DNA of 33,753 bases, taken from UHGV virus genome UHGV-0114643; one strand, 5' to 3'. Shown piece after piece: positions 12,356-17,913 of this stretch. Source of the DNA: a virus. Under the pieces are notes generated by a model. The model had not been told where the DNA came from. It saw nothing but the letters and a program-made list of their open reading frames with translations, and did not search any database. The position numbers and the translations under genes are program-made. Position 1 is the stretch's first letter, and the number at the start of each line of letters is the position of its first letter.

Positions 12356-13771
12356 ATGAGCGAATTATTTAAACACTCGCATCTACATGCAGGTTTAACT
12401 GAAAACGGTGCTGTTAACCACACATCTTCAATGTCTGCACTGGTAGATTTCTACAAAGCTGCTGGTTCAAGCAGAACAAATGTAGAAGTTCTTCCAAACT
12501 TGTTTTACAAGGCAATGCGAGAAGATATTGATGTAGCAGTTCGAATCCTGTTACATATGCGAGATGCACGAGAAGGTATGGGTGAGCGTAAAGCGTTCCG
12601 TTATACTCTTACTAAAGCAATCTCTGACGGGATTCTTGATGAGTTTCAAGTATTACGTATCATGGACAAGATTTCTGATTTAGGTCGTTATGACGACTTT
12701 AAAATCTTTGTTGGTACACGTTACGAAACAGATGCTTTCAAGCATTTAGAATCGGCACTGTTAGACCCTGCAACATCGGCTCTGGCAGCAAAATGGTTAC
12801 CACGAGTAAAATCACGACACATGCGTTTTGTTCGTCGTTTCTGTAAGTTTGCAAATCTTTCAGAGAAGCAGTATCGAGTTCTTCTGTCAGCACTGTCTGA
12901 TACTGTTGAACAAAAGATTTCAGCAAACGAGTTTGGAGAGATTGATTACAGCAAGCTTCCTTCACTGGCTGCTGCACGTTATCAAAAACTCTTCAGTCGT
13001 AAAGATGGTGAGCGTTATGCAGCATACGTTACAGCACTGACTAAAGGTGAGACAAAGATTAATGCTGGTGCAGTCTACCCTTATGACATTACAAAGTCAG
13101 TCGGTTACGGTAATGCAACCGTTGCAAATGAGCAGTGGAAAGCTTTACCAAACTGGATGAAAGAGGGTGAAAACATTCTGTGCATGGCAGATGTATCTTC
13201 ATCTATGACTTGGGAGCGACATGGTTCTGTTACAGCGCTAGATATTGGTGTATCTTTAGCCCTGTACGTTTCAGAACGTAATACAGGTTGCTTTAAAGAT
13301 GAATTGATGGTTTACTCTAGCCGACCTCACTTCATCACATTGAGTGGTGATTTGCAGACTCGCTTACGACAAGTAAAGAGTCATGTAGAATATGGTTCAA
13401 CTGACCTACAAGCTGCTTTTGCAAGAATCCTTGAGATTGGTGTTAAAAACAACTTGACTCAGAAAGAGATGCCTAGTAAGCTTATCATCTTCTCTGATAT
13501 GCAGTTCAATCAGGTTGATGGAGCAGATGGTCGTACTAACTTTGAAGCAATTCAAGAAAAGTACAAGAAAGCTGGATATGAGATGCCACAACTGGTATTC
13601 TGGTACTTAGCAAACCGTAATGGTACTTGCGAAGTGTCTGTAAAGGATAACGGTGTAGCAATGGTATCTGGTTTCTCTCCAGCCACTTTAAAAGCTTTGC
13701 TTGGTGGTGAGAAGTTTGACCCTATCAGCGTAATGCTCAAAGCAGTAATGATTGAACGCTACGATTGGTAA
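12356..13771 (+). CDS. vWA-domain protein, 471 aa (helical N-terminal region + C-terminal von Willebrand A domain); possibly Ro60/TROVE-like or DUF2828-like
   Basis: MIDAS-like D-x-S-x-S in LCMADVSSSMTWE and beta-strand-like LIIFSDMQF seen in translation; fold family is inferred, not searched. Confidence 0.6.
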   Translation: MSELFKHSHLHAGLTENGAVNHTSSMSALVDFYKAAGSSRTNVEVLPNLFYKAMREDIDVAVRILLHMRDAREGMGERKAFRYTLTKAISDGILDEFQVLRIMDKISDLGRYDDFKIFVGTRYETDAFKHLESALLDPATSALAAKWLPRVKSRHMRFVRRFCKFANLSEKQYRVLLSALSDTVEQKISANEFGEIDYSKLPSLAAARYQKLFSRKDGERYAAYVTALTKGETKINAGAVYPYDITKSVGYGNATVANEQWKALPNWMKEGENILCMADVSSSMTWERHGSVTALDIGVSLALYVSERNTGCFKDELMVYSSRPHFITLSGDLQTRLRQVKSHVEYGSTDLQAAFARILEIGVKNNLTQKEMPSKLIIFSDMQFNQVDGADGRTNFEAIQEKYKKAGYEMPQLVFWYLANRNGTCEVSVKDNGVAMVSGFSPATLKALLGGEKFDPISVMLKAVMIERYDW

Positions 13772-14187: not shown

Positions 14188-14264
14188 TGCGGGTATAGAG
14201 AAAGGGTGTCTCACATGTCTCATTAGCATGTTATCGGTAGGTTCGACTCCTACACCCGCCTCCA
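14188..14264 (+). tRNA. tRNA with CAT anticodon (Met, fMet or Ile2), atypical (U1:C72 mismatch, U at position 37)
   Basis: Acceptor TGCGGGT/ACCCGCC, T-arm GTAGG-TTCGACT-CCTAC, anticodon arm CATGT-CTCATTA-GCATG, CCA encoded. Confidence 0.55.
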
Positions 14265-14493: not shown

Positions 14494-14581
14494 GCGTCGT
14501 TATCCCGTAGATGGAAGCGGTGGTGACTGTAAATCACTTGTCATTATGACTCGGTAGGTTCGACTCCTTCACGGCGCACCA
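14494..14581 (+). tRNA. tRNA-Tyr (anticodon GTA), long variable arm
   Basis: Acceptor GCGTCGT/ACGGCGC, anticodon arm GGTGA-CTGTAAA-TCACT, variable-arm hairpin, T-arm, CCA encoded. Confidence 0.8.
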
Positions 14582-14813: not shown

Positions 14814-14940
14814 CAGAAGACCGTTTACAGCAAACAATAAACAATCTATTTCTCTGGTAAAGAAAAGGCGAAGGTTCGATTCCTTCACACGTTACGGCGT
14901 GTTGGTGTAATGGAAGCACTTAAGATAAATACGGTCTGGT
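14814..14940 (+). repeat. inter-tRNA element d (127 nt) with internal T-arm mimic (GAAGG-TTCGATT-CCTTC) and D-arm-like hairpin; candidate Y-RNA-like ncRNA
   Basis: Same termini as a-c; tRNA-like motifs present but no acceptor stem pairing, so not a tRNA. Confidence 0.5.
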
Positions 14941-15400: not shown

Positions 15401-15414
15401 ATTTCATAAAGTTG

Positions 15415-15443
15415 TTGACATTCAGATGTGACCACTTTAAGAT
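15415..15443 (+). promoter_or_regulatory. internal promoter-like element (TTGACA-N17-TAAGAT) inside the tRNA array
   Basis: Exact -35, 17-nt spacer, 4/6 at -10. Confidence 0.35.
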
Positions 15444-15676
15444 AACCTTAGTTTTCGTTAGCGTAGCGTCTATTTTAAAAACTTAAAAATAAATGCAAAC
15501 GATAATGTTTTTCTGGCAGTAGCTTAATAGGCTAAACACCAGCAGGGTATTCCAACTCCCTGTTAAAGAATTTGGCGTACTAGCCCACGGTATGATTAAT
15601 AAAGTGGGCAATATTCTAAAGAGCATCCCTTAAGGGGCTTGGCTTAAATGCAATGAGTGCTCTTTAAAATATTAAT

Positions 15677-15752
15677 GCTCCGTTAGTCTAAAGGATAGGC
15701 AACTGTCTTCTAAACAGTTCATATATAGGTTCGAGTCCTATACGGAGTGCCA
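15677..15752 (+). tRNA. tRNA-Arg (anticodon TCT)
   Basis: Acceptor GCTCCGT/ACGGAGT, D-stem GTCT/AGGC, anticodon arm ACTGT-CTTCTAA-ACAGT, T-arm ATAGG-TTCGAGT-CCTAT, CCA encoded. Confidence 0.85.
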
Positions 15753-15813
15753 ATTCTAATGGTCAAGACAACACGAGTAAGTTATCTTAGATACGCGTTA
15801 AGAGATAAACGAA

Positions 15814-15881
15814 AGTCGGAAAGTTGCTGAAGGGTAGCTCCCTTCGATAGTAAGTAGGTTCGACTCCTACCTTGACTGCCA
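15814..15881 (+). tRNA. tRNA-like element, probably degenerate or interrupted (canonical T-arm and 3' end with CCA, but no D-arm; a perfect 5' acceptor partner GGTCAAG lies at 15761-15767)
   Basis: T-arm GTAGG-TTCGACT-CCTAC and 3' strand CTTGACT-G-CCA; only 65 nt from the nearest 5' partner, 118 nt from the perfect one. Confidence 0.3.
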
Positions 15882-16046
15882 AATAGTTAGCAGATTACTA
15901 CGACGACCTTTATGGGTCTCCGCATTGACTTGAAAGAGTCAATCTCATAAGGAGGTGGTCTGTATCTCATGTTTTCCAGAACATGTAAATAATCTGAGAA
16001 GAAGCTTGACAGTGTTGAGATAACAGGGTAAGCTTCGAAATATAGT

Positions 16047-16129
16047 ATGGGACGATGTTAAGACACTAAGGCATGTGCGTAAGCCTCCAAAACTTACTCA
16101 AAGGGGTTCGAATCCTCCGTCCCATGCCA
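16047..16129 (+). tRNA. atypical tRNA, candidate tRNA-Trp (CCA inside a 9-nt anticodon loop CCUCCAAAA; D region ~7 nt too long)
   Basis: Perfect acceptor ATGGGAC/GTCCCAT, T-loop GGGGTTCGAATCC, CCA encoded; Trp is the only amino acid otherwise missing from the array. Confidence 0.45.
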
Positions 16130-16142
16130 AAGTCTTATTAGG

Positions 16143-16230
16143 GGTAGGTAGCGGCTAATGGAAGCCAAACTGTCTTGAAAACAGTTGCCATTGTAGAGAT
16201 ACGGTGAGGGTTCGACTCCTTTATCTACCG
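16143..16230 (+). tRNA. tRNA-Ser (anticodon TGA), long variable arm; 3' CCA not encoded (CCT follows)
   Basis: Acceptor GGTAGGT/ATCTACC, anticodon arm ACTGT-CTTGAAA-ACAGT, 20-nt variable arm, T-arm GAGGG-TTCGACT-CCTTT. Confidence 0.75.
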
Positions 16231-16485
16231 CCTAATAAGATTTAAAGCTGAGACTCGCTGTTCGGGCAAGTGTTTCAGGTTTCCTCTTCGTGTATTGGCG
16301 TACACGGCACTGGTAAAACACCTAGTAGGTGTCACGGAGAAGAGATAGTATCAAGCTCTCCAAAGGTTCTAGTCACCGGATTAAACAAGACTATGCAAAG
16401 GCCAATAGGTCTTTTTAGAGAATTGTTAAGATGTTTAATACCATTGTTGCTTTGGTGTCTTAGCAGTTCTCTACAAAGATTTAAT

Positions 16486-16651: not shown

Positions 16652-16727
16652 GGGGATGTAGTTTACATGGTTAAAACATAAGTTTTGCAAACTTAAGTAC
16701 AGGGTTCAATTCCCTGCTTCTCCACCA
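16652..16727 (+). tRNA. tRNA-Ala (anticodon TGC) with G3:U70 identity pair
   Basis: Acceptor GGGGATG/CTTCTCC, D-stem GTTT/AAAC, anticodon arm TAAGT-TTTGCAA-ACTTA, T-arm CAGGG-TTCAATT-CCCTG, CCA encoded. Confidence 0.85.
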
Positions 16728-17156: not shown

Positions 17157-17369
17157 ATGAAGCCTTATGGTAGACATGGTAAAGTTGAAATTGCAAGTTG
17201 TGGTTGCTGTGCTTCTCACGATGGTGAAGAAGATTACTACAAGTGGCGTACAGACCATCGTAAACGCTTTCTCAGAAGAGATAAGAAGAAAGCTAGACAG
17301 GAATCTCGAAAGAATATTGCAGAATTAGTTCAAATGGATAGAACAGCAATCTACGAAGTTGTTTGTTAG
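17157..17369 (+). CDS. small basic Cys-containing hypothetical protein, 70 aa; last ~17 codons overlap tRNA-Arg
   Basis: ATG with AGGAGA 7 nt upstream; ORF in track; overlap makes the true extent uncertain. Confidence 0.35.
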   Translation: MKPYGRHGKVEIASCGCCASHDGEEDYYKWRTDHRKRFLRRDKKKARQESRKNIAELVQMDRTAIYEVVC

Positions 17370-17395
17370 GGGTTCGAATCCCTTATTCTGCACCA
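17319..17395 (+). tRNA. tRNA-Arg (anticodon ACG)
   Basis: Perfect acceptor GCAGAAT/ATTCTGC, D-stem GTTC/GAAC, anticodon arm GCAAT-CTACGAA-GTTGT, T-arm AGGGG-TTCGAAT-CCCTT, CCA encoded. Confidence 0.8.
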
Positions 17396-17413
17396 ATTTT
17401 AGAAGGTAATTAT

Positions 17414-17641
17414 ATGCGTAAACTCATTATTGAAAGGCATAAAGATGCTGACAAGATTGAAACAACACAAGTTGGGGACACTGACTTCATTCTTGTAGGT
17501 TGGAAATGTGACCCAATAGCAGCTATGAAGGTTGTTCATGGTTTTGCAGGAATTGAATTTAATCAAATCATATTTGAAACGCTATTACCAGAAAATCAGG
17601 ATACGTGTAATAACGCATATGTCCTGACAAGAGTTCGTTAG
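17414..17641 (+). CDS. hypothetical protein, 75 aa (paralogue A: MRKLIIERH ... DTCNNAYVLTRVR); start moved to the ATG with a proper RBS
   Basis: About 60% identical to 17686..17913; AGAAGG upstream of ATG. Confidence 0.5.
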   Translation: MRKLIIERHKDADKIETTQVGDTDFILVGWKCDPIAAMKVVHGFAGIEFNQIIFETLLPENQDTCNNAYVLTRVR

Positions 17642-17667
17642 GGGTTCGAATCCCTTATTCTGCACCA
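17633..17667 (+). pseudogene. tRNA 3' fragment (T-arm + acceptor 3' strand + CCA), identical to the 3' end of tRNA-Arg(ACG); duplication scar
   Basis: 30 of 31 nt identical to 17365-17395; no complementary 5' acceptor strand or D-arm upstream. Confidence 0.55.
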
Positions 17668-17685
17668 AATTTAAAAGGGTAACTT

Positions 17686-17913
17686 ATGTTTAAACTCATA
17701 GTTGAAAAACACCCAGAAGATGACAAGCTTGAAACAGGGAGATTTGGAGATACTTTCTTTATCAGAGTTGGCTGGAAAGCTGACCCATTAGAAGTTAGAA
17801 AGATTGTCTACAACTTTGCTGGTTTGGAATTAAAGCAAGTCATCTTTGAAACAATGTTGCCAGAAAATAAAGATACATGCAATAACGCATATATTCTTAC
17901 AAGAGTTAGTTAG
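17686..17913 (+). CDS. hypothetical protein, 75 aa (paralogue B: MFKLIVEKH ... DTCNNAYILTRVS)
   Basis: ORF in track; AAGGG upstream; paralogous to 17414..17641. Confidence 0.5.
   Translation: MFKLIVEKHPEDDKLETGRFGDTFFIRVGWKADPLEVRKIVYNFAGLELKQVIFETMLPENKDTCNNAYILTRVS

What the first reader, a model, noticed from the sequence alone, without database searches (positions are those of the whole stretch)
15761..15881. Interrupted or degenerate tRNA: perfect acceptor partner 118 nt from the 3' end
The 3' end at 15854-15881 has a canonical T-arm and CTTGACT-G-CCA. The only fully complementary 5' acceptor strand (GGTCAAG, 15761-15767) lies 118 nt upstream, immediately after tRNA-Arg(TCT). A closer partial partner (AGTCGGA, 15814) would give a 65-nt molecule without a D-arm. 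Options are an inserted ~45-nt element, a structurally minimal tRNA-like RNA, or a pseudogene.
Basis: seen in the sequence. Interest (0 to 1): 0.45.

Follow-up and report, generated by a model that had tools for sequence, protein, structure and literature searches.

The report
Oversized tRNA-like gene in phage
A phage tRNA operon holds a conserved, unannotated 121-base RNA gene with the two ends of a tRNA but an oversized middle; it probably does not decode, and it lies 2 kb from a Ro60-like RNA-binding protein gene.

Summary
Window 15761-15881 is a discrete 121-nt unit in the tRNA operon of a Felix O1-like (Mooglevirus) phage. It starts 8 nt after tRNA-Arg(TCT). It has a 7-bp acceptor stem (six Watson-Crick pairs plus G1.U72), a canonical T arm, discriminator G and an encoded CCA.

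The unit occurs in 25 phage records (Mooglevirus, Suspvirus). It is cleanly absent from other Ounavirinae, and an HNH endonuclease gene fills the same junction in Sf16.

Two hairpins show compensatory changes and no pair is broken, which argues against a decaying pseudogene. One of those changes closes the 'anticodon' loop to 5 nt. Position 37 is U and the would-be anticodon is AGC, so decoding is unlikely.

About 61 nt sit where a roughly 19-nt D arm belongs. Deleting 42 nt makes ARAGORN call a tRNA, but shuffled controls do the same in 27-66% of trials. An 'insertion' is therefore not demonstrated.

No Rfam family matches, no record annotates it as an RNA gene, and I found no paper describing it.

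The ORF 2 kb upstream folds like Ro60. My best reading is a tRNA-derived, non-decoding mimic RNA. A Y-RNA-like partnership with that protein is possible but unproven.

The parts
15753..15760 (+). 8-nt spacer (ATTCTAAT) between the CCA of tRNA-Arg(TCT) and the element. It belongs to the presence/absence cassette.
   Evidence: Junction comparison. Spacers of 2-8 nt are usual between tandem tRNAs of this operon.
15761..15767 (+). Acceptor-stem 5' strand, GGTCAAG.
   Evidence: Pairs with 15871-15877 in all 11 sequences (7/7, G1.U72). The strand is invariant. Pair 3:70 is U-A in 9 sequences and U.G in 2.
15768..15781 (+). Conserved, probably single-stranded linker ACAACAC(G/T)AGTAAG.
   Evidence: 13 of 14 positions are invariant. 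It has several competing pairing partners, for example CAAC with GTTG at element positions 63-66, and these are not resolved.
15782..15808 (+). Extra hairpin with no counterpart in a tRNA (element positions 22-48).
   Evidence: Pair 23:47 is U-A in 5 sequences and C-G in 6. Pair 25:45 is U-A or U.G. All cells pair. This is the most variable part of the element, 69-86% identical between genera.
15809..15823 (+). Invariant purine-rich block ACGAAAGTCGGAAAG (element positions 49-63). It holds a GG that could act as a D-loop G18-G19, and a CGAA motif.
   Evidence: Invariant in all 11 sequences. ARAGORN places a D arm at 15811-15827, but that assignment is not statistically supported.
15829..15845 (+). 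Anticodon-arm-like hairpin: 6-bp stem GAAGGG/CCCTTC with an invariant 5-nt loop TAGCT.
   Evidence: Pair 74:80 is G-C in 4 sequences and U-A in 6. KPS64 has lost one A-U pair on both strands. Pair 69:85 is G-C or G.U.
15846..15853 (+). 8-nt variable-loop equivalent, GATAGTAA.
   Evidence: The first three positions vary freely and AGTAA is invariant.
15854..15870 (+). T arm GTAGG-TTCGACT-CCTAC, with the canonical T-loop letters U54 U55 C56 R57 A58.
   Evidence: Invariant except G57 to A in Moogle, which is the usual purine variation. GTAGGTTCGACTCCTAC is also the T arm of tRNA-Met 14188-14264.
15871..15881 (+). Acceptor 3' strand CTTGACT, discriminator G and encoded CCA.
   Evidence: All canonical tRNAs of the operon also encode CCA.
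15677..15752 (+). Context: tRNA-Arg(TCT). The element is probably co-transcribed with it.
   Evidence: ARAGORN and Rfam.
15415..15443 (+). Context: nearest upstream sigma-70-like promoter match, TTGACA-17-TAAGAT.
   Evidence: This is a consensus match only.
12356..13771 (+). Context: Ro60/TROVE-like protein gene (DUF2828 + DUF7788) on the same strand, ending 1,990 nt upstream of the element.
   Evidence: Pfam. AlphaFold model with pLDDT 89.9. The top 12 PDB matches are all Ro60/TROVE.

Best explanation
This is a genuine, selectively maintained gene for a 121-nt tRNA-derived small RNA inside the phage tRNA operon.

**What the RNA keeps.** It has the half of a tRNA that processing and binding enzymes read: a 7-bp acceptor stem, a T arm with a canonical T loop, a discriminator base and an encoded CCA. 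It also has a hairpin where the anticodon arm belongs.

**What differs from a tRNA.**
- About 61 nt sit where the roughly 19-nt D arm would be. They comprise a conserved linker, an extra hairpin and an invariant purine-rich block.
- The 'anticodon' loop is closed to 5 nt by a covarying pair.

**Inferred mechanism.**
- The RNA is transcribed with tRNA-Arg(TCT).
- RNase P cuts it at G15761, and it is stabilised like a tRNA.
- It does not decode. It acts as a tRNA mimic that binds a tRNA-recognising factor.
- The most specific candidate factor is the phage's own Ro60-like protein, encoded 2 kb upstream on the same strand. That would make the RNA a Y-RNA-like partner. I put this sub-claim at about 0.2.

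**Shown versus inferred.** The unit, its boundaries, its conservation and the base-pair-preserving substitutions are shown. Transcription, processing, non-decoding and any partner are inferred.
For: **A discrete unit**
- The cassette 15753-15881 is present in the window, Sf17, Moogle, Michonne, KPS64, Sf19 and SUSP1-type phages. It is absent, with clean junctions, in Sf15, VpaE1 and Henu11. An HNH gene replaces it in Sf16.

**Structure is conserved** (11 distinct sequences)
- 95.9% of cells pair, against 37-50% when the partners are slid.
- Compensatory changes occur at 23:47 and 74:80. KPS64 has lost one base pair on both strands.
- Simulated random substitutions give at least 2 compensatory pairs and none broken with P of about 2-4e-4.

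**Conservation between genera**
- Element positions 51-121 are 92-99% identical between genera. The flanking spacers are 75-99% identical, and the adjacent tRNA-Arg is only about 70% identical in phages that carry its other allele.

**tRNA ancestry**
- The T arm is identical to that of tRNA-Met 14188-14264.
- A covariance model of the element scores genuine tRNAs, up to 27 bits.
- The spacer length and the encoded CCA match the rest of the operon.

**Signs that it does not decode**
- Pair 32:38 is Watson-Crick and covaries.
- Position 37 is U, and the would-be anticodon AGC has A34.
- Pair 3:70 is U-A, so it lacks the alanine identity pair.
- ARAGORN at default settings and Rfam tRNA (12.3 bits against a threshold of 29) both reject it.

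**Ro60 context**
- The upstream ORF matches Ro60 structures, including a phage Ro60.
- The Felixounavirus Bas63 homologue gp130 counters the Ppl defence. Its authors suggest that some of the adjacent 'tRNA genes' are Y RNAs (PMC11482910).
- Y RNAs are 80-130 nt and lie within 4 kb of Ro60 on the same strand. They have a terminal stem, tRNA-like arms and a CGAA-type motif (PMC4201824; PMC12135203).
Against: - There is no expression, processing or binding data.
- The comparative set is shallow: 11 sequences in about three lineages, so only about three independent compensatory events.
- Acceptor, T-arm and candidate D-loop positions never vary, so they are untested by covariation.
- The D-region fold is unresolved. 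Four models lie between -23 and -30 kcal/mol.
- The D arm that ARAGORN finds is no better than in shuffled controls.
- About 90% of Ounavirinae carry the Ro60-like gene but lack this element. It cannot therefore be that protein's obligatory partner.
- Rfam Y_RNA and YrlA models do not match.
- The motif match (AACGAAAG at element positions 48-55) lacks the first G and is not near the 5' end.
- GUC at acceptor positions 2-4 (NGUC at the 5' end) occurs in 15 of 309 ordinary phage tRNAs. The likeness of the acceptor helix to the Ro-binding helix may therefore be chance.
Confidence: 0.55

Rival explanations
1. It is a tRNA pseudogene. A duplicated tRNA gene acquired extra sequence in its D region and is drifting. 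It persists only because it is young and hitch-hikes within the operon.
For: - tRNA finders reject it.
- It has non-canonical A8, G14, U37 and an A.G mismatch in the putative D stem.
- It is dispensable, since about 90% of related phages lack it.
- The same operon holds other tRNA debris, such as the duplicated tRNA-Arg(ACG) 3' end at 17596-17667.
Against: - Two compensatory double substitutions and a two-strand loss of one base pair have occurred, with no broken pair in 27 pairs across 11 sequences.
- Element positions 51-121 are better conserved between genera than the flanking spacers.
- Long single-stranded blocks are invariant.
Confidence: 0.15
2. It is a working decoding tRNA with an enlarged D region. 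It is charged by some synthetase and reads GCU-type codons through anticodon AGC in a 7-nt loop G/U-UAGCU-C/A.
For: - ARAGORN at a relaxed threshold, or after deletion, draws a cloverleaf with a 5-bp anticodon stem, a 7-nt loop and U33.
- The acceptor stem, T arm and CCA are intact.
- The loop UAGCU is invariant.
Against: - Pair 32:38 is Watson-Crick and covaries from G-C to U-A, which closes the loop.
- Position 37 is a pyrimidine.
- By general knowledge, A34 in bacteria is confined to tRNA-Arg(ACG).
- Pair 3:70 is U-A or U.G rather than the alanine determinant G3.U70.
- The operon already has tRNA-Ala(TGC) at 16652-16727.
- The D-arm assignment is not significant.
Confidence: 0.1
3. It is an interrupted tRNA gene. 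About 42 nt are removed after transcription to yield a tRNA of about 79 nt.
For: Deleting 15769-15810 yields a cloverleaf that ARAGORN accepts at default settings.
Against: - The same procedure succeeds in 27% of interior shuffles, and in 66% when the 69-85 hairpin is kept.
- By general knowledge, bacterial and phage tRNA introns are group I introns of 200 nt or more in the anticodon loop. This segment lies in the D region and matches no Rfam intron or ribozyme.
- Bacteria have no known splicing route for this position.
- The product would still have the abnormal anticodon loop.
- No intron-less allele exists in any collection searched.
Confidence: 0.05
4. It is not an RNA gene. The block is a recombination scar or filler at a homing-endonuclease insertion hotspot, and its value, if any, lies at the DNA level.
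For: - The junction after tRNA-Arg is polymorphic. It is empty in some phages, holds this block in others, and holds an HNH gene in Sf16. Felix O1 has an HNH gene just upstream of the conserved downstream region.
- The element and tRNA-Arg share T-arm and TGCCAA sequence, which could mediate unequal recombination.
Against: - The compensatory changes make sense only for a folded RNA.
- The block is on the operon strand, has tRNA-like unit boundaries and encodes CCA.
- No ORF of 30 codons or more lies on the + strand across it.
Confidence: 0.05

Closest known systems
Bacterial and phage Y RNAs (YrlA, Deinococcus Yrn1, Thermus phage phiLo Yrl1/2), the partners of Ro60
   Same: - About 80-130 nt long.
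- Encoded within 4 kb of a Ro60-type gene and on the same strand.
- A stem formed by the 5' and 3' ends.
- A tRNA-like T arm.
- A CGAA-containing conserved block.
- M. smegmatis YrlA is cut by RNase P and receives CCA (PMC4201824; PMC12135203).
- From my own recollection of human Y RNA sequences, not checked here: the terminal helix GGUC.../...UUGACU resembles the Ro-binding helix GGUCCGA/UUGACU.
   Different: - Rfam YrlA and Y_RNA models do not match.
- Its order of parts is that of a tRNA, with the ends in the acceptor stem. YrlA has a permuted order.
- The GNCGAAN0-1G motif is imperfect and not near the 5' end.
- No bulged C in the terminal helix.
- The adjacent protein belongs to the DUF2828 family and resembles Ro60 only in fold, with 11-17% identity.
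- Most phages with that protein lack this RNA.
Phage T4 stable RNAs rnaD (species 2, 119 nt) and rnaC (species 1, 139 nt)
   Same: - Unexplained stable RNAs of 119-139 nt, encoded directly after tRNA-Arg in a phage tRNA operon.
- rnaC ends in a T arm plus an acceptor-like stem.
   Different: - No sequence or model similarity. rnaC scores 14 bits with the element's model, from its T arm only, and rnaD scores nothing.
- The annotated rnaC and rnaD ends carry no full encoded CCA.
- No single deletion turns rnaC or rnaD into a tRNA for ARAGORN.
Canonical elongator tRNA (Rfam RF00005)
   Same: - Acceptor stem, T arm, discriminator and CCA.
- A hairpin at the anticodon-arm position.
- Membership of the tRNA operon.
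- A T arm identical to that of a neighbouring tRNA.
   Different: - 121 nt long.
- A D region about 42 nt too long.
- A closed 5-nt loop with U37.
- Scores below all tRNA detection thresholds.
tmRNA
   Same: An acceptor/T-arm module with extra sequence between the two acceptor strands.
   Different: - Pair 3:70 is U-A, not G.U.
- No tag reading frame and no pseudoknots.
- Far too short.
- ARAGORN's tmRNA search is negative.

Membership tests
Canonical tRNA | 7-bp acceptor stem with a discriminator base and 3' CCA | tested here: met
   1-7 pairs with 111-117 in all 11 sequences, followed by G and then CCA.
Canonical tRNA | T arm with a 5-bp stem and a 7-nt loop reading U54 U55 C56 R57 A58 | tested here: met
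   GTAGG-TTCGACT-CCTAC. The only variation is G57 to A.
Canonical tRNA | D arm (3-4 bp stem, 7-11 nt loop) two nucleotides after the acceptor stem | tested here: not met
   61 nt separate the acceptor strand from the anticodon-like arm. The candidate D arm at 51-67 lies 43 nt from the acceptor strand and is no better than shuffled controls.
Canonical tRNA | 7-nt anticodon loop with U33 and a purine at 37 | tested here: not met
   Pair 32:38 is Watson-Crick and covaries, and position 37 is U.
Canonical tRNA | Detected by tRNA models at their thresholds | tested here: not met
   ARAGORN at default settings finds nothing, with or without introns. Rfam tRNA gives 12.3 bits against a threshold of 29, covering only part of the model.
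Y RNA / YrlA-like Ro60 partner | Encoded within about 4 kb of a Ro60 orthologue and on the same strand | tested here: met
   The Ro60-fold ORF 12356-13771 ends 1,990 nt upstream on the + strand. The criterion is from PMC4201824.
Y RNA / YrlA-like Ro60 partner | 80-130 nt long, with a stem formed by the 5' and 3' ends | tested here: met
   121 nt, with a terminal 7-bp stem.
Y RNA / YrlA-like Ro60 partner | GNCGAAN0-1G (GGUCCGA-like) motif near the 5' end | tested here: inconclusive
   AACGAAAG at element positions 48-55 is invariant, but it lacks the first G and sits mid-molecule. The 5' end reads GGUCAAG.
Y RNA / YrlA-like Ro60 partner | Match to the Rfam YrlA or Y_RNA covariance models | tested here: not met
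   No hit at E up to 10, in either a 6.3-kb or a 151-nt search.
Y RNA / YrlA-like Ro60 partner | Physical binding to the Ro60 protein | not testable with these tools
   Needs a pull-down or gel-shift experiment.
tmRNA | G3.U70 alanine identity pair, a tag reading frame and pseudoknots | tested here: not met
   Pair 3:70 is U-A or U.G. ARAGORN's tmRNA mode is negative.
T4 rnaC / rnaD | Sequence or structure homology to T4 species 1 or 2 RNA | tested here: not met
   With model R1, rnaC scores 14.2 bits (E 0.15) and rnaD is not hit.
Intron-containing bacterial or phage tRNA | Group I intron core (200 nt or more) in the anticodon loop | tested here: not met
   The extra sequence is about 42 nt and lies in the D region. 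No Rfam intron matches.

The most novel reading that the evidence does not exclude
The element is a phage Y RNA of a new shape. It is a tRNA-ordered mimic whose acceptor helix and conserved CGAA/GG block dock onto the Ro60-like protein encoded 2 kb upstream. That protein is the homologue of Bas63 gp130, which counters the Ppl defence. The RNA would tune or redirect the protein, for example by gating its RNA-binding ring or by tethering a host exonuclease such as PNPase.

It would be one of several such RNAs hidden in Ounavirinae tRNA arrays, alongside the more widely conserved 82-nt tRNA-like RNA at 16049-16130. It would also belong with a broader, unrecognised habit of DUF2828-encoding phages of carrying oversized tRNA-like genes in their tRNA arrays.
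Probability: 0.18. Interest if true: 0.75.

Novelty: new variant of a known kind. Interest (0 to 1): 0.5.

Why it matters
- **tRNA counts.** Phage tRNA arrays are annotated almost wholly by tRNA finders, so tRNA-shaped RNAs that are not tRNAs go unseen. This one is missed as an RNA gene in all 25 genome records that carry it.
- **A testable candidate.** The Ro60-like protein of a related phage has been reported to defeat a bacterial defence system, and its RNA partner is unknown. A conserved, non-decoding tRNA mimic beside the homologous gene here is a concrete candidate to test.
- **A natural experiment.** Sister phages with the cassette, without it, or with an HNH gene in its place allow a direct comparison.
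- **If it has no partner.** The element would still document how tRNA genes are remodelled into new small RNAs inside phage operons.

Tried and rejected
1. **Interrupted tRNA.** ARAGORN with introns allowed finds nothing. The deletion scan gives a tRNA, but shuffled controls succeed in 27-66% of trials, so I dropped this as evidence.
2. **Decayed copy of the adjacent tRNA-Arg.** The acceptor strands differ, and only the T arm is alike.
3. **Mobile or repeated insert.** The 30-nt and 50-nt insert sequences are unique in the window and in 50,697 phage records.
4. **More distant homologues.** Three pattern scans of IMG/VR and two of metagenome contigs returned only the known isolates or chance hits. 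Model R1 confirmed the non-homology. The 14-mer scan was too unspecific and wasted a scan.
5. **Host mimicry.** No similarity in 5,426 E. coli genomes.
6. **Homology to T4 rnaC/rnaD.** None beyond the T arm.
7. **Known RNA families, ribozymes, tmRNA.** None.
8. **Resolving the D-region fold.** Constrained folding did not settle it. RNAalifold proposes pairing AGUCGGA with the T loop. That helix never covaries, and the Moogle G57A change breaks it.
9. **The palindromic ACGCGT/ACATGT in the insert loop.** The simplest explanation is free variation in a tetraloop.
10. **GGUC/GACU as a Ro-binding signature.** Weakened by its 5% frequency in ordinary phage tRNAs.
11. **Literature.** No searched paper describes this element.

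Full report
**Setting.** The window comes from a Felix O1-like myovirus (Ounavirinae). The closest records are Mooglevirus phages of Citrobacter and Shigella, at 95-96% identity over the tRNA region. ARAGORN finds 25 tRNA genes on the + strand between 13937 and 19270. The finding lies in the 390-nt gap between tRNA-Arg(TCT) (15677-15752) and tRNA-Ser(TGA) (16143-16232). That gap is unannotated in the relatives examined.

**The observation.**
- T arm GTAGG-TTCGACT-CCTAC at 15854-15870.
- CTTGACT at 15871-15877, then G, then CCA ending at 15881.
- GGTCAAG at 15761-15767, 8 nt after the CCA of tRNA-Arg.
- AGTCGGA at 15814.

The stem is six Watson-Crick pairs plus G1.U72, not fully complementary, and the unit is 121 nt. 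GGTCAAG is the only 7/7 partner within 260 nt upstream. Complementarity alone is only marginal evidence, because 6% of shuffles of the 133 nt upstream give an equally good partner.

**A discrete, portable unit.** Comparing junctions in related phages gives three states.
- In Sf15, VpaE1 and Henu11, the CCA of tRNA-Arg is followed directly by (A/G)(A/T)TAGTTAGCAG, the sequence at window 15882 onward.
- In the window, Sf17, Moogle and others, the 129-nt block 15753-15881 (8-nt spacer plus 121-nt element) sits exactly between these two points.
- In Sf16, an HNH homing-endonuclease gene occupies the same junction.

The block starts right after one CCA and ends with its own CCA, so it has the boundaries of a tRNA gene unit. 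Both alleles of the upstream tRNA-Arg occur with and without it, which indicates recombination. BLAST finds the block in 25 of about 259 Ounavirinae records that match the region, all Mooglevirus or Suspvirus, at 87-99% identity. None annotates it as an RNA gene. Pattern scans of IMG/VR and of metagenome contigs found no further relatives. E. coli genomes hold nothing similar.

**Structure and selection.** Eleven distinct sequences were aligned.
- *Invariant parts:* positions 1-14, the block 49-60 and positions 89-101, and all but a few positions (61, 102, 115) in the rest of 49-63 and 89-114.
- *Hairpin 23-27/43-47:* pair 23:47 switches between U-A and C-G.
- *Hairpin 69-74/80-85:* pair 74:80 switches between G-C and U-A, KPS64 has lost one A-U pair from both strands, and 69:85 is G-C or G.U.
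- *Acceptor stem:* pair 3:70 is U-A or U.G.

For the structure I specified, 95.9% of cells pair, against 37-50% when partners are slid. No pair is broken apart from a constant A.G mismatch in the putative D stem. Placing the observed number of substitutions at random gives at least two compensatory pairs and none broken with P of about 2-4e-4.

Element positions 51-121 are 92-99% identical between genera. The extra hairpin region is 69-86% identical and the flanking spacers are 75-99% identical.

This pattern is that of a folded RNA under selection, not a decaying pseudogene. The caveat is depth. The sequences fall into about three lineages, so there are only about three independent compensatory events. 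The acceptor stem, T arm and candidate D loop never vary, so covariation does not test them.

**Is it an interrupted tRNA?** ARAGORN finds nothing at default settings, with or without introns. After deleting element positions 9-50 (window 15769-15810) it calls a 79-nt cloverleaf, 'tRNA-Ala(AGC)'. That cloverleaf has a D arm at 51-67 whose loop GUCGGAAAG contains GG.

I tested how much this means. With the acceptor and T arm fixed and the interior shuffled, some deletion gives an ARAGORN tRNA in 27% of 1000 shuffles. The figure is 66% when the 69-85 hairpin is also kept. The '42-nt insertion' and the D-arm assignment are therefore not supported statistically.

Constrained folding leaves four D-region models within about 7 kcal/mol of each other:
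- the ARAGORN D arm;
- CAAC(9-12) paired with GUUG(63-66), which would make a giant D loop;
- AGUAA(16-20) paired with UUGCU(64-68);
- AGUCGGA paired with the T loop.

What can be said is that about 61 nt lie where a tRNA has about 19. They contain a real extra hairpin and an invariant purine-rich block. The sequence of that region is unique, and no uninterrupted relative exists.

**tRNA ancestry, but probably no decoding.** The T arm is identical to that of tRNA-Met 14188-14264. A covariance model of the element scores genuine tRNAs, up to 27 bits. The spacer length and encoded CCA match the operon.

Several features argue against decoding.
- The 'anticodon' loop is closed by a covarying Watson-Crick 32:38 pair.
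- Position 37 is U.
- The would-be anticodon AGC has A34, which in bacteria is otherwise confined to tRNA-Arg(ACG) (general knowledge).
- Pair 3:70 is U-A rather than the alanine determinant G.U.
- The operon already has tRNA-Ala(TGC).
- Rfam gives the tRNA model 12.3 bits against a threshold of 29, and no other family matches.

**Context.** The ORF 12356-13771 is on the same strand and ends 1,990 nt upstream. It carries DUF2828 and DUF7788. Its AlphaFold model (pLDDT 89.9) has Ro60/TROVE structures as its top 12 PDB matches, including the Ro60 of Thermus phage phiLo (E 7e-9 to 1e-6).

- A preprint on the Felixounavirus Bas63 reports that the homologous gp130 resembles Ro60, sits directly upstream of the tRNA genes and counters the Ppl defence. 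Its authors suggest that some of the 'tRNA genes' may be Y RNAs, without naming any (PMC11482910).
- Bacterial and phage Y RNAs are 80-130 nt and are encoded within 4 kb of Ro60 on the same strand. They have a terminal stem, tRNA-like arms and a GNCGAA-type motif (PMC4201824; PMC12135203).

The element meets the location, size and terminal-stem criteria and has a T arm. It carries an invariant AACGAAAG. Its terminal helix GGUC.../...UUGACU recalls the Ro-binding helix GGUCCGA/UUGACU. The 3' strand of that comparison rests on my own memory of human Y RNAs.

Several points count against this reading.
- Rfam's Y RNA models do not match.
- The motif is imperfect and misplaced.
- GUC at acceptor positions 2-4 occurs in 15 of 309 ordinary phage tRNAs.
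- Most phages with the protein lack the element.

I therefore treat 'Y-RNA-like partner' as the most interesting surviving reading, at a probability of about 0.2, and not as the conclusion.

**Comparison with T4.** T4 places two unexplained stable RNAs, rnaD (119 nt) and rnaC (139 nt), directly after its tRNA-Arg. rnaC ends in a T arm and an acceptor-like stem. The placement and size are strikingly parallel. There is no homology, though: rnaC scores 14 bits with the element's model, and neither T4 RNA reduces to a tRNA by a single deletion.

**Verdict.** This is a real, conserved, unannotated gene for a tRNA-derived small RNA with an oversized D region and a non-decoding 'anticodon' arm. It is a new variant of the tRNA-mimic kind. 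Its function is unknown. The best-supported mechanism is maturation like a tRNA followed by action as a mimic or decoy. The adjacent Ro60-like protein is the most specific candidate partner. Interest is moderate (0.5). The family is narrow and there is no functional evidence, but the element is directly testable and sits beside a reported anti-defence gene whose RNA partner is unknown.

Noticed in passing
window 16049-16130 (+): A second unannotated tRNA-like RNA of 82 nt: ATGGGAC...GTCCCAT-G-CCA with T arm GGGG-TTCGAAT-CCTC.
- Neither ARAGORN nor Rfam calls it.
- It is much more widely conserved than the focal element, reaching Felix O1 and Pectobacterium phage Arno162.
- Its two internal hairpins and its acceptor stem show compensatory changes: CAC/GTG versus CTC/GAG, GTAAG/CTTAC versus GACGG/CCGTT, and AT..AT versus GC..GC.
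- One hairpin has an invariant 9-nt loop CCTCCAAAA, which resembles the anti-Shine-Dalgarno sequence.
- A TTGACA-17-TAAGCT promoter-like site lies just upstream, at 16008-16036.
- It is a better candidate than the focal element for a universal partner of the Ro60-like protein.
   Followed up: partly
window 12356-13771 (+): The DUF2828 + DUF7788 protein, annotated 'RNA-binding protein' in RefSeq, is predicted with high confidence to have the Ro60/TROVE ring plus vWA fold. It is the homologue of Bas63 gp130, reported to counter the Ppl defence (PMC11482910).
   Followed up: yes
loci L147-L226 (80 IMG/VR contigs encoding DUF2828 homologues): About 35 of the 80 contigs have a tRNA array within 8 kb of the Ro60-like gene. 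In many the array lies downstream on the same strand, with the first tRNA 18-900 nt after the gene in most of those. The link between this protein family and tRNA arrays therefore recurs in distant phages whose proteins are about 40% identical to the one here.
   Followed up: partly
L183 11327-11452, 11768-11918, 12129-12261; L191 12830-12962; L195 11229-11376; L202 10985-11117, 11718-11841, 12135-12349: A family of oversized (about 120-215 nt) tRNA-like genes that ARAGORN misses.
- All share a tRNA-Leu-like frame: AGTCCTG-TGGCGGAATTGGTAGACGC ... ACAGGTTCGAATCCTGT-CAGGACT-A.
- Each carries a different insert of about 50-140 nt in the anticodon/variable region.
- Several copies occur per phage, downstream of the DUF2828 gene.
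   Followed up: no
L174 9895-10018; L168 7597-7714; L182 4278-4393: tRNA genes with a perfectly canonical acceptor stem, D arm and T arm, but about 45-55 extra nt in the anticodon-loop region. That is far too short for a group I intron. They are either mini-introns or non-decoding tRNA mimics.
   Followed up: no
window 17319-17913 (+): A tandem duplication.
- The 3' part of tRNA-Arg(ACG) (17319-17395) is repeated at about 17630-17667.
- ORFs 17363-17641 and 17686-17913 are paralogues, both phrog_14202.
- Sf17 has a single copy.
   Followed up: partly
window 15882-16000 (+): The spacer after the element is conserved across Ounavirinae and folds into a long stem (CAGATTA...TAATCTG) that encloses hairpins. 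The hairpin GCATTGACTTGAAAGAGTCAATC is present in Mooglevirus but absent in VpaE1 and Henu11. It may be another structured RNA.
   Followed up: no
window 15401-15676 (+): A 276-nt gap between tRNA-Ile and tRNA-Arg. It holds the best internal promoter match (15415-15443) and sub-threshold Rfam hits to permuted and alpha tmRNA models (34.7 and 20.3 bits). The hits are probably driven by the tRNA-Ile T arm. The gap is conserved at 78-99%.
   Followed up: no
window 14188-14264, 14494-14581 and 14820-14894 (+): Other atypical tRNA-like members of the operon.
- tRNA-Met(CAT) at 14188-14264 also has U37 and scores low in Rfam (31.7 bits).
- The tRNA-Tyr(GTA)-like gene at 14494-14581 scores 22.8 bits. 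Relatives annotate it as tRNA-Tyr or as a pseudo-tRNA.
- A hit of 28.8 bits at 14820-14894 has a good T arm but no acceptor partner.
   Followed up: no
junction after tRNA-Arg(TCT): L005 1156-1503 (Sf16); L234 70-462 (Felix O1): HNH homing-endonuclease genes occupy the same intergenic site that the element occupies in the window. Other endonuclease genes replace or flank tRNA-Ser in Sf19, SUSP1 and CHB7. The site is a hotspot for mobile genes.
   Followed up: partly
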